Shown piece by piece: positions 1,650-2,279 of a stretch of 4,496 nt of DNA. The translations under genes were made by a program, and so were the position numbers. The DNA lies in the IMG/VR virus record IMGVR_UViG_2740892234_000016. The stretch is one strand, 5' to 3'. Numbering within the stretch: position 1 is the stretch's first letter; the number at the start of each line of letters is the position of its first letter. Origin of the DNA: a virus (Duplodnaviria; Heunggongvirae; Uroviricota; Caudoviricetes). Under the pieces are notes generated by a model, which saw only the letters and a list, made by a program, of their open reading frames with translations, was not told where the DNA came from and searched no databases.

Positions 1650-2199
1650 TTTCACCGGAAGCAATACTCCTGCCGAACATCGCGACAGCTGGCGCACACC
1701 ACCAGAGATTTTTGCTGCGCTTAATGCAGAGTTCGTTTTTCAACTTGATGCTGCCGCCAGCGAAAAAAACCGACTATGTCGGCTTTTTATCTCACAGGAG
1801 CAGAACACATTAACCACTTCATGGCCTGAAGCAATGGGATATGCCTCTGGTTATGTCTGGTTGAATCCACCATACAGCAATATTTCCCCTTTTGTGAAAA
1901 AGGCAGCCACTGAAAACAAATTCAGTAGTGTGGGATGTGTAATGTTATTGCCTGCTGACACATCTGTCGGATGGTTTCATGAAGCGATACAAACCGCCAG
2001 TGAGGTCAGATTCATCACGGCAGGACGACTGGCATTTATTAACCCACTCACTGAGAAACCCGTCAGTGGAAATAATAAAGGCTCGATGCTCATTATCTGG
2101 CACCCATACCCCCGTACACACTGCCACTTTACGACCGTTGATCGTGGAGAGTTGATGGCGTTCGGCTCAAGGATTCTTGCCCGTCGGGAGGCTGCATGA
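1642..2199 (+). CDS. Phage Dam-type DNA N6-adenine methyltransferase (185 aa), orphan (no restriction enzyme partner in the window)
   Basis: It carries an NPPY motif (VWLNPPYSNISPF), the catalytic motif IV of amino-methyltransferases. The N-terminal region WRTPPEIFAALNAEFVFQLDAAAS is typical of the small phage-borne Dam-like family. It has a G-rich ribosome-binding site at 1633-1637 and its stop overlaps the next ATG. Confidence 0.82.
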   Translation: MTDFTGSNTPAEHRDSWRTPPEIFAALNAEFVFQLDAAASEKNRLCRLFISQEQNTLTTSWPEAMGYASGYVWLNPPYSNISPFVKKAATENKFSSVGCVMLLPADTSVGWFHEAIQTASEVRFITAGRLAFINPLTEKPVSGNNKGSMLIIWHPYPRTHCHFTTVDRGELMAFGSRILARREAA

Positions 2200-2279
2200 C
2201 AACCACGGAATGCATTTTTCTGGCAGCGGGCTTCATATTCTGTGTGCTTATGCTTGCCGACATGGGACTTGTTCAATGA
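2196..2279 (+). CDS. Small hydrophobic peptide (27 aa), possible membrane micro-protein
   Basis: It translates MTTTECIFLAAGFIFCVLMLADMGLVQ and is overlapped as ATGA on both sides (methyltransferase stop at 2197-2199, next ATG at 2276-2278). Its first 60 nt are duplicated at 1305-1364 with one synonymous change. Confidence 0.35.
   Translation: MTTTECIFLAAGFIFCVLMLADMGLVQ

What the first reader, a model, noticed from the sequence alone, without database searches (positions are those of the whole stretch)
2196..2279. Conserved 27-aa hydrophobic micro-ORF, translationally coupled on both sides and present twice
MTTTECIFLAAGFIFCVLMLADMGLVQ is essentially a single transmembrane helix. Its ATG overlaps the upstream stop as ATGA and its stop overlaps the downstream ATG as ATGA. 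Its 5' end is preserved at 59/60 nt in two otherwise different contexts (after orf63 and after the methyltransferase), with the one difference synonymous. Conservation starting exactly at the start codon argues for selection on this short stretch as a coding or coupling element. Small membrane peptides in phage early regions can act as host-killing or exclusion factors, but that role is speculation here.
Basis: partly seen in the sequence, partly recalled or inferred. Interest (0 to 1): 0.45.

Follow-up and report, generated by a model that had tools for sequence, protein, structure and literature searches.

The report
Hidden 27-codon gene in lambda phages

Summary
Window 2196-2279 is an intact 27-codon ORF (MTTTECIFLAAGFIFCVLMLADMGLVQ) with ATGA overlaps at both ends, and its first 60 nt recur at 1305-1364 (59/60). 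That first copy stops only because a 10-N scaffold gap (1365-1374) cuts it. The window joins two lambdoid exo-xis alleles, one with orf63 and one with a Dam methylase.

The ORF is in phage lambda itself (J02459 complement 30925-31008), where it is not annotated. It occurs in 3142 of 5426 complete E. coli genomes and is intact in 219 of 221 fetched loci.

Distinct substitutions give pN/pS 0.24 (P=5e-4). That matches its accepted neighbours orf61 (0.30) and orf73 (0.29). The overlapping frame annotated as the N-terminus of a 93-aa 'Orf61' gives 1.17.

Remote Orf61 homologues all start at the Met of window 2276, so the true Orf61 is 71 aa. Lambda's 'orf61' is an out-of-frame read across the micro-ORF joined to a frameshifted orf61.

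Best reading: a real, lineage-restricted microprotein gene for a membrane-type peptide, translated within a chain of coupled early genes and handing ribosomes to the weak-SD orf61. Translation, membrane location and function remain untested. It is a new member of a known kind, of moderate interest.

The parts
2196..2279 (+). 27-codon micro-ORF (complete copy), peptide MTTTECIFLAAGFIFCVLMLADMGLVQ; equals lambda J02459 complement(30925..31008)
   Evidence: intact in 219/221 loci and pN/pS 0.24
1305..1364 (+). first 60 nt of a second copy of the micro-ORF, after orf63; cut by the scaffold gap
   Evidence: 59/60 identical to 2196-2255
1365..1374 (.). run of 10 N: scaffold gap joining two contigs (two exo-xis alleles)
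   Evidence: the sequence after the gap repeats the exo 3' end and orf60a (D1)
2186..2191 (+). Shine-Dalgarno GGGAGG serving the micro-ORF start in the Dam context (4 nt before the ATG)
   Evidence: anti-SD duplex -10.3 kcal/mol, the strongest of 16 starts scored in the window
1642..2199 (+). phage Dam-family N6-adenine methyltransferase, upstream cistron of copy 2; its stop overlaps the micro-ORF ATG
   Evidence: PF05869, E=2e-56; PhiR30_1, 99.9% identical
1117..1308 (+). orf63 (DUF1382), upstream cistron of copy 1; its stop overlaps the micro-ORF ATG
   Evidence: PF07131, E=1e-30
2276..2491 (+). true orf61 (71 aa), downstream cistron; its ATG overlaps the micro-ORF stop and has the weakest SD among the annotated gene starts
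   Evidence: PGAP 71-aa CDS; remote homologues start here; -3.9 kcal/mol; pN/pS 0.30
2210..2275 (+). out-of-frame read across the micro-ORF that some annotations (phi24B vb_24B_7c, Prodigal calls, PHROG 303) treat as a 22-aa N-terminal extension of Orf61; judged non-coding
   Evidence: pN/pS 1.17; SD -2.6 kcal/mol; absent from remote homologues; pLDDT 44-56
852..1111 (+). exo 3' end plus orf60a, left arm shared by both alleles (second copy 1378-1637, 96%)
   Evidence: D1
2488..2583 (+). next small ORF in the coupled chain (31 aa from GTG, 29 aa from ATG 2494); contains a terminator-like hairpin at 2512-2530 followed by a T-run
   Evidence: a review names a 31-aa orf2313 from ribosome profiling; weak coding signal, pN/pS 0.50, P=0.13

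Best explanation
Window 2196-2279 is a genuine protein-coding micro-gene of the lambdoid exo-xis (early leftward, pL) operon. It is restricted to E. coli lambda-like phages and is missing from the reference annotation of lambda.

Proposed mechanism:
1. Ribosomes finishing the upstream cistron (orf63, or a Dam methylase in the alternative cassette) terminate at the TGA of an ATGA overlap. They start again at the micro-ORF ATG, helped by a Shine-Dalgarno sequence inside the upstream gene's 3' end.
2. The product is a 27-residue, acidic (pI about 4), very hydrophobic peptide whose core (C6-V26) is long enough to sit in the inner membrane.
3. Termination at the second ATGA hands ribosomes to the 71-aa orf61, whose own Shine-Dalgarno sequence is the weakest among the annotated genes of the window.

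Shown here: ORF integrity, frame-specific purifying selection, start-site signals, overlap geometry, and the true start of orf61. Inferred, not shown: actual translation, membrane insertion, coupling efficiency, and what the peptide does (most likely modulation of a membrane-associated host or phage process early in infection).
For: 1. Integrity. The 27-codon ORF is intact in 219 of 221 loci. It is present at 4255 places in 3142/5426 complete E. coli genomes and in 176 phage records at 92% peptide identity or more.

2. Frame-specific purifying selection.
- 25 distinct substitutions split 14 synonymous: 11 non-synonymous, giving pN/pS 0.24, P=5e-4. The set selected only through orf61 gives 0.18, P=1e-3.
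- Neighbours measured the same way: orf61 0.30, orf73/TraR 0.29.
- The two other frames give 0.86 and 1.17.
- Of variants seen 5 times or more, 7 are synonymous and 1 is non-synonymous.

3. Most divergent copy. In CRE444 (91.7% identity) 5 of 7 changes are synonymous in this frame, whereas 4 of 5 are non-synonymous in the rival frame.

4. Start signals. The anti-SD duplex is -10.3 kcal/mol in the Dam context and -5.6 in the orf63 context. It is -2.6 for the rival ATG 2210 and -3.9 for orf61. Where the micro-ORF is absent (L106 type, L255), orf61 has its own GAGG or AGGAG.

5. The rival frame is not conserved.
- About 70 loci, including copy 1 and phage 434, carry a TGA (ACT GAA) that closes lambda's annotated orf61 start.
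- About 20 remote Orf61 clusters (69-75 aa) all begin at the Met of window 2276.
- The AlphaFold2 model of the 93-aa form has pLDDT 44-56 for residues 1-20 against 78-91 for the body.

6. Hydrophobicity. GRAVY is +1.62 and the 15-residue Kyte-Doolittle windows reach 2.9.

7. Transcription. The published 'orf61' qPCR amplicon (window 2256-2325) covers the ORF's 3' end, and its RNA level is similar to that of N after lambda infection (PMC4195576).

8. No RNA alternative. There is no Rfam hit and the fold z-score is +0.9.
Against: - No direct evidence of translation or of the peptide was available. The lambda ribosome-profiling paper is not held, and the reviews that cite it name only 7-aa and 31-aa new ORFs in this region.
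- The selection test rests on only 25 distinct substitutions in a population at 92% identity or more.
- The gene is dispensable for the module. Orf61 occurs without it in 100/5426 genomes and in every remote homologue context examined.
- One locus (L007) lost the ATG to a DndB-like cassette and reads ATG in the rival frame.
- The peptide has no Lys or Arg, so it lacks the usual positive-inside topology signal. Its uninterrupted hydrophobic core is only about 15 residues, with D22 inside the 21-residue stretch.
- No Pfam, PHROG or PADLOC family matches it.
Confidence: 0.75

Rival explanations
1. The micro-ORF is translated only as a bridge. Its job is to keep ribosomes on the message between the variable upstream cassette and orf61 (termination-reinitiation at two ATGA overlaps). 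The peptide itself has no function and is degraded.
For: - ATGA or GTGA overlaps are conserved at both ends.
- The orf61 SD is the weakest among the annotated genes in the window (-3.9 kcal/mol). Orf61 copies without the micro-ORF have their own SD or overlap the upstream gene directly.
- The micro-ORF is always linked to orf61 (221/221 loci) and is absent from remote homologues.
Against: A pure spacer needs only an open frame, not a sequence. Yet non-synonymous changes are depleted about four-fold (pN/pS 0.24), as strongly as in orf61 and orf73. Common variants are 7 synonymous to 1 non-synonymous. Length is also fixed at 27 codons, with no in-frame indels in 221 loci.
Confidence: 0.15
2. The real gene is the 93-aa 'long Orf61' starting at ATG 2210 (as annotated for phi24B vb_24B_7c and in PHROG 303), or lambda's 61-aa orf61. 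On this view the 27-codon ORF is a chance open frame overlapping its 5' end.
For: - The frame is open from 2177 to 2491 in the window.
- Many gene callers choose it (P0001 cluster, 1695 members; PHROG 303 covers it).
- L007 has an ATG with a good SD at exactly this position in this frame.
Against: - pN/pS is 1.17 in that frame across the overlap.
- There is no SD before ATG 2210 (-2.6 kcal/mol).
- Lambda's start is closed by a TGA in about 70 loci.
- PGAP and several phage annotators use the 71-aa start.
- All remote homologues start at the internal Met.
- The extension is modelled at low confidence, and a published review reports an inconsistent N-terminal helix (PMC8614690).
- The L007 junction is found in none of 5426 E. 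coli genomes.
Confidence: 0.06
3. The conserved 84 nt are a nucleic-acid element: an RNA structure, a small RNA, or a recombination hot spot that defines the cassette boundary. The open frame is then incidental.
For: Four different cassettes end at or near its 5' end. Nucleotide identity is very high (92% or more) everywhere.
Against: - No Rfam family matches.
- The predicted fold is no better than shuffles (z=+0.9).
- Promoter and terminator matches are at chance level.
- Variation is concentrated at third codon positions of one frame, which an RNA or DNA element does not predict.
- Synonymous-site variation (13 variants over 18.3 sites) is as high as in the neighbours.
Confidence: 0.03

Closest known systems
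Lambda orf61 (J02459 31024-30839) and phi24B vb_24B_7c ('Orf61', 93 aa), the annotations that cover this stretch
   Same: Same DNA. The published deletions, frameshift mutants, qPCR amplicon and ribosome-profiling signal for 'orf61' all include the micro-ORF.
   Different: They read a different frame. Lambda's orf61 consists of 10 codons across the orf63 end and the micro-ORF start, then 22 out-of-frame codons of the micro-ORF, then 22 codons of true Orf61, then 7 frameshifted codons from an A7 run where relatives have A6. The conserved protein is the 71-aa form, and PGAP flags the lambda copy as a frameshifted pseudogene.
Bacterial small membrane proteins of 50 aa or fewer (for example E. coli YohP, 27 aa; AcrZ; MgtS) - recalled from the literature, not tested here
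   Same: Similar size, a single hydrophobic helix-length segment, missed by annotation pipelines because of length, and detectable through frame-specific conservation.
   Different: There is no sequence relationship. This peptide is phage-borne and carries no basic residue at all (net charge about -2), so its topology cannot be predicted by the positive-inside rule.
   Same: 18-50 aa hydrophobic peptides that act on the inner membrane.
   Different: The locus has no dedicated promoter, no antisense RNA partner (the only antisense promoter-like hit is at chance level) and no long structured 5' UTR. The ORF is an internal cistron of a long coupled operon, lacks the charged or polar tail usual in those toxins, and has no PADLOC hit.
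The 31-aa ORF between orf61 and orf73 (window 2488-2583; reported as orf2313 from lambda ribosome profiling, per PMC8614690)
   Same: A neighbouring unannotated micro-ORF in the same coupled chain (GTGA here, ATGA in lambda), partly hydrophobic and sporadically annotated.
   Different: Its selection signal is weak (pN/pS 0.50, P=0.13) and it overlaps a terminator-like hairpin. The 27-codon ORF has a clear coding signature, but the review does not list it among the new ORFs found by profiling, probably because it lies inside the annotated orf61.
Translational coupling by overlapping stop/start (ATGA, TGATG) in polycistronic operons (termination-reinitiation; established knowledge)
   Same: The geometry is identical at both ends. 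The whole exo-orf60a-orf63-microORF-orf61-31aa chain uses overlaps.
   Different: Here a whole 27-codon cistron sits between the partners. In remote relatives the orf61-like gene overlaps the upstream methylase directly.

Membership tests
Protein-coding small ORF (microprotein gene) | Open frame with start and stop preserved across homologues, without frame-breaking indels | tested here: met
   219/221 loci are intact. The exceptions are L007 (5' end replaced) and L123 (Q27stop). One IS66 insertion was found.
Protein-coding small ORF (microprotein gene) | Excess of synonymous over non-synonymous change in this frame only | tested here: met
   pN/pS is 0.24 (P=5e-4), against 1.17 and 0.86 in the other frames. 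The neighbours orf61 and orf73 give 0.30 and 0.29.
Protein-coding small ORF (microprotein gene) | Usable translation start (SD or coupling) | tested here: met
   GGGAGG lies 4 nt upstream (-10.3 kcal/mol) in the Dam context and the duplex is -5.6 in the orf63 context. The ATGA overlap is present in 220/221 loci.
Protein-coding small ORF (microprotein gene) | Direct evidence of translation (ribosome footprints in frame, tagged product, mass spectrometry) | not testable with these tools
   The Liu et al. 2013 profiling paper is not held. Its signal over 'orf61' cannot be assigned to a frame from here. The peptide is absent from the supplements of two small-ORF surveys.
Single-pass small membrane protein | Hydrophobic segment long enough to span the bilayer | tested here: inconclusive
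   GRAVY is +1.62 and Kyte-Doolittle 15-residue windows reach 2.9. However, the uninterrupted core is about 15 residues, and it reaches 21 only if D22 is included. No dedicated TM predictor was available.
Single-pass small membrane protein | Flanking basic residues that fix topology (positive-inside rule) | tested here: not met
   The sequence has no Lys or Arg. Its only charged residues are E5 and D22.
Type I toxin / host-killing peptide | Own promoter plus overlapping antisense RNA or other dedicated control; toxicity on expression | tested here: not met
   It is an internal cistron of the pL operon. The one antisense promoter-like site matches chance expectation (1 found, 1.1 expected). There is no Rfam hit and no PADLOC hit. 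Toxicity is not testable here.
N-terminal part of Orf61 (93-aa form; PHROG 303) | Extension conserved as protein and present in family members | tested here: not met
   pN/pS is 1.17. About 20 remote clusters and the P0024 type start at the internal Met. pLDDT is 44-56.
Translationally coupled cistron (termination-reinitiation) | Stop of one cistron overlapping the start of the next, and a weak independent SD on the downstream start | tested here: met
   ATGA at 2196-2199 and 2276-2279. The orf61 SD is -3.9 kcal/mol, the weakest among the annotated gene starts. Overlaps are conserved. Dependence of Orf61 synthesis on micro-ORF translation is not testable here.
Known RNA family / structured RNA element | Match to a covariance model or a fold more stable than shuffles | tested here: not met
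   There are 0 Rfam matches at E of 1 or below. The MFE is -41.8 against a shuffle mean of -45.4, z=+0.91.

The most novel reading that the evidence does not exclude
In lambda PaPa the true orf61 is a frameshifted pseudogene. The phenotypes published for lambda 'orf61' deletions and 1-bp frameshifts (altered lysis-lysogeny decision, delayed development after induction) would then be caused wholly or partly by loss of this 27-residue membrane peptide. If so, the peptide is an unrecognised early effector of lambdoid phage development, for example one acting on a host envelope or membrane-bound regulator.
Probability: 0.25. Interest if true: 0.6.

Novelty: new member of a known kind. Interest (0 to 1): 0.42.

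Why it matters
Lambda is the reference temperate phage, and its exo-xis region is being dissected gene by gene because it influences prophage induction in Shiga-toxin phages. If the 27-codon gene is real, three things follow.

1. The gene list of lambda and of about 3100 of 5426 complete E. coli genomes lacks a conserved early gene.
2. 'orf61' of lambda is an annotation artefact, and the 93-aa Orf61 used for structure modelling carries 22 spurious residues.
3. Every published orf61 deletion also removed this gene, so the assigned phenotypes need to be re-partitioned.

It is also a clean example of a young, lineage-restricted microprotein inserted into a coupled gene chain.

Tried and rejected
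- Rfam scan of the whole window at E of 1 or below: nothing.
- RNA fold of 2170-2320: no better than shuffles.
- Promoter and terminator scan of 1900-2700: chance level near the ORF. The only notable hit is the hairpin at 2512-2530.
- Pfam, PHROGs and PADLOC with the peptide: no significant family. The best was phrog_21538 'membrane protein', E=0.68.
- tblastn against 50,697 phage records at E of 10 or below found no divergent relatives outside E. coli lambdoid phages.
- The 'distant' hits of the first protein search were mostly frameshifted copies and uninformative.
- The exhaustive representative search was needed to find true remote Orf61 relatives. A profile of them was too divergent for the search for related loci.
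- Full-text search for the peptide, for orf2311/orf2313, and for exo-xis small proteins: no description of this ORF. It is absent from the supplements of two small-ORF surveys.
- Programmed -1 frameshifting from the micro-ORF into orf61 at the T5 run was considered and dropped. The run is not conserved (F8L and TTC variants) and the frame-2 stretch is unconstrained.
- Stop-codon readthrough of the L007 upstream gene into the remnant of the micro-ORF frame was considered and left as speculation. The junction is unique.

Full report
**What is in the window.** The 4496 bases are the exo-xis (early leftward) region of an E. coli lambdoid prophage, read in the direction of pL transcription.

| Feature | Window coordinates |
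|---|---|
| 3' end of bet | up to 288 |
| exo | 285-965 |
| orf60a (DUF1317) | 956-1144 |
| orf63 (DUF1382) | 1117-1308 |
| first 60 nt of the micro-ORF | 1305-1364 |
| run of ten N | 1365-1374 |
| last ~115 nt of exo again, then a second orf60a | orf60a 1482-1649 |
| Dam-family methyltransferase | 1642-2199 |
| complete micro-ORF | 2196-2279 |
| 71-aa ORF (true orf61) | 2276-2491 |
| 31-aa ORF | 2488-2583 |
| orf73 (TraR homologue) | 2590-2808 |
| DUF4222 gene | 2856-3134 |
| excisionase-like HTH gene | starts at 3106 |
| integrase | 3333-4496 |

The part after the gap is 99.9% identical to Escherichia phage PhiR30_1, which has exo-orf60a-methylase-orf61 in that order. The part before the gap is the classical lambda order. 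The N run and the 260-nt repeat around it (852-1111 / 1378-1637, 96%) show that the window is a scaffold of two contigs. These carry two alternative alleles of the same region.

**Checking the observation.**
- The sharp left edge of the homology is real. It is a mosaic junction: the slot between orf60a and the micro-ORF holds interchangeable cassettes.

Upstream contexts among the 209 loci first tabulated:

| Cassette upstream of the micro-ORF | Loci |
|---|---|
| orf63 | 184 |
| Dam methylase | 24 |
| DndB-like 355-aa protein (L007) | 1 |

A fourth cassette, a 250-aa protein of unknown family, replaces orf63, the micro-ORF and the first seven codons of orf61 together (L106). That arrangement occurs in 100 of 5426 complete E. 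coli genomes.

**It is in lambda itself, and hidden there.**
- The 84 nt are identical in the lambda reference (J02459 complement 30925-31008).
- Lambda has no feature for it. Instead 'orf61' (31024-30839) is drawn across it in another frame.
- Translation of that feature gives MRETRYDNHG, then MHFSGSGLHILCAYACRHGTCS (the micro-ORF read out of frame), then MTPQQENALRSIARQANSEIKK (the start of the true protein), then a 7-residue tail.
- The tail arises because lambda has A7 where 434, the window and nearly all relatives have A6. PGAP marks the lambda copy as a frameshifted pseudogene.
- RefSeq annotation of E. coli genomes leaves a 76-nt unannotated gap exactly here, between the DUF1382 gene and a 71-aa CDS.
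- Phages 434 and P27 are annotated the same way. Phi24B and others use a 93-aa form starting at the out-of-frame ATG (window 2210).
- The exact 27-aa sequence does exist in protein databases as 'hypothetical protein' (UniRef A0A0A2SGE8) and was called on 981 contigs. It is not wholly unseen, but I found no paper that describes it.

**Is it coding?** I collected 221 loci from viral and genome contigs, phage records and E. coli chromosomes.
- The 27-codon frame is intact in 219 of them.
- The exceptions are L007, where the DndB-like cassette replaces the first ~20 nt, and L123, where Q27 became a stop that still abuts the next ATG. One further genome has an IS66 insertion.

I counted each distinct substitution once against the consensus.

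| Region and frame | Syn : non-syn | pN/pS | P |
|---|---|---|---|
| micro-ORF frame, all loci | 14 : 11 | 0.24 | 5e-4 |
| micro-ORF frame, loci chosen only through orf61 | 10 : 6 | 0.18 | 1e-3 |
| 93-aa 'long Orf61' frame across the overlap | 5 : 20 | 1.17 | 0.7 |
| third frame across the overlap | 6 : 19 | 0.86 | 0.45 |
| orf61, 71-aa frame | 23 : 24 | 0.30 | 4.5e-5 |
| orf73, an experimentally characterised protein | 36 : 36 | 0.29 | 2.6e-7 |

- Variants seen five or more times are 7 synonymous to 1 non-synonymous in the micro-ORF frame.
- The most divergent full copy (strain CRE444, 91.7%) has 5 synonymous and 2 non-synonymous changes in this frame. In the 93-aa frame it has 1 synonymous and 4 non-synonymous.
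- Synonymous-site variability is as high as in the neighbours, so no extra nucleic-acid constraint is visible.
- No Rfam family matches and the RNA does not fold better than shuffles (z=+0.9).

**Which start does orf61 use?** An exhaustive profile-free search of 1.8 billion representative proteins found about 20 remote clusters of this family. They are 69-75 aa long and 30-65% identical. Their first residues align with the Met at window 2276, and none has the 22-residue extension. An AlphaFold2 model of the 93-aa form has pLDDT 44 and 56 for residues 1-10 and 11-20, against 78-91 for the helical body. This agrees with a published note that the N-terminal helix of modelled phi24B Orf61 is inconsistent between methods and that lambda Orf61 'appears truncated' (PMC8614690). 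In about 70 loci, including copy 1 of the window and phage 434, the synonymous ACT variant creates a TGA that closes lambda's orf61 start. The true Orf61 is therefore the 71-aa protein. That leaves the 76 nt upstream free for the micro-ORF.

**Start signals and coupling.** Anti-Shine-Dalgarno duplex energies:

| Start site | Duplex energy (kcal/mol) |
|---|---|
| micro-ORF, Dam context | -10.3 (strongest of 16 starts scored in the window) |
| micro-ORF, orf63 context | -5.6 |
| out-of-frame ATG 2210 | -2.6 |
| orf61 ATG 2276 | -3.9 (weakest among the annotated gene starts) |

- Where the micro-ORF is missing, orf61 has its own GAGG (L106) or AGGAG (L255). Otherwise it overlaps the stop of the upstream gene directly (L250, L251/252, L254).
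- The overlaps are conserved. ATGA is at the 5' end in 220/221 loci. At the 3' end there is ATGA in 206 and GTGA in 15, and that A-to-G change is synonymous (CAA to CAG) in the micro-ORF.
- The whole stretch from exo to the 31-aa ORF is a chain of overlapping cistrons.
- I infer, but cannot show, that the micro-ORF is translated by reinitiation after the upstream cistron and in turn feeds ribosomes to orf61.

**The peptide.** MTTTECIFLAAGFIFCVLMLADMGLVQ has a mass of 2.9 kDa, GRAVY +1.62 and pI about 4.
- The stretch C6-V26 is hydrophobic apart from D22.
- There is no Lys or Arg, which is unusual for small membrane proteins and leaves topology open.
- It has no detectable relatives outside E. 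coli lambdoid phages and no family assignment.
- Remote Orf61 loci lack any counterpart. It is therefore a young, lineage-restricted gene that is nevertheless under constraint.
- Its function is unknown. My best guess is a membrane-associated modulator acting early after infection or induction. A toxin or exclusion role is possible, but nothing here supports it specifically.

**Relation to the literature.** RNA across the 3' end of the ORF is abundant after lambda infection. The 'orf61' qPCR primers of Bloch et al. 2014 map to window 2256-2274 and 2308-2325. Reviews state that ribosome profiling confirmed expression of 'orf61' and found two extra peptides of 7 and 31 aa in this block. The 31-aa one fits window 2488-2583, which is an ATG-started 31-codon ORF in lambda. 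Footprints on the micro-ORF would have been credited to the overlapping orf61. Deletions of 'orf61' in lambda and phi24B changed the lysis-lysogeny decision, induction and, for phi24B, adsorption (PMC6213356). These deletions necessarily removed the micro-ORF. In lambda PaPa, where orf61 is already frameshifted, the micro-ORF is a candidate for the effect.

**Verdict.** The coding and coupling interpretation is supported by comparative evidence, although the argument from the duplicate was unsound. This is a new member of a known kind: a small hydrophobic phage microprotein in a coupled operon. Its added value is correcting a long-standing annotation in lambda and the Stx phages. Interest is moderate.

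Noticed in passing
window 1365-1374 with 852-1111 / 1378-1637: A ten-N scaffold gap sits between two contigs that share the exo 3' end and orf60a at 96%. The window is a join of two alternative exo-xis alleles (orf63 type and Dam-methylase type), probably two prophages of one draft genome.
   Followed up: partly
L001 (lambda J02459) 1485-1670; window 2330-2340 equivalent: The lambda reference has A7 where relatives have A6, inside the true orf61. Lambda's annotated 61-aa orf61 is therefore a composite of out-of-frame and frameshifted sequence, and PGAP flags it as a frameshifted pseudogene in a K-12 lysogen.
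   Followed up: yes
window 2488-2583, hairpin 2512-2530 plus T-run: A 31-codon ORF (GTG here, ATG in lambda) is coupled to the orf61 stop. It is probably the 'orf2313' of lambda ribosome profiling. It contains a terminator-like hairpin that matches the predicted t2 terminator of Bloch et al. 2014. Its coding signal is weak (pN/pS 0.50, P=0.13).
   Followed up: partly
window 2276-2491; loci L251, L252, L254, L250: Orf61-family genes (about 70 aa, motif NALR...IGvLNG) repeatedly sit immediately after a DNA methyltransferase gene with overlapping stop and start. The methylase is Dam in the window and MT-A70 in the remote relatives L251, L252 and L254; in L250 the overlapping upstream gene has no family assignment. 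This suggests a functional link between the Orf61 family and methylases.
   Followed up: no
window 2276-2491: NCBI names this 71-aa protein 'cell division protein ZapA'. The Pfam ZapA match is below threshold (16.1 bits against a 23.8 cut-off, E=0.014). A published model calls the fold homeodomain-like, so the name looks over-reaching.
   Followed up: no
L007 371-1438 and L106 1241-1993: The slot between orf60a and orf61 is a cassette hot spot. A DndB-like (DNA-sulfur modification associated, DGQHR) 355-aa gene occupies it in Escherichia sp. E1V33, and a 250-aa gene with no family match occupies it in about 100 E. coli genomes.
   Followed up: partly
loci L008-L021; MW057783.1: Lambda-identical sequence carrying the A7 frameshift turns up in assemblies labelled Shewanella, Pseudomonas, Bradyrhizobium, Paenibacillus, Kitasatospora and others, often on ~48-kb contigs. 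It also appears in a 48,361-bp record called Campylobacter phage CJLB-4. These are almost certainly lambda DNA contamination or mislabelling.
   Followed up: no
L234 1-1803: An IS66-family transposase is inserted into the 5' end of the micro-ORF in one E. coli genome, creating a 100-aa chimeric ORF call (P0002).
   Followed up: partly
window 956-1144 versus 1482-1649: The two orf60a copies diverge only at their C-termini (…[18 protein letters not shown] versus …[11 protein letters not shown]). This is where the orf63 or methylase cassette begins, so the left cassette junction lies inside orf60a's 3' end.
   Followed up: no
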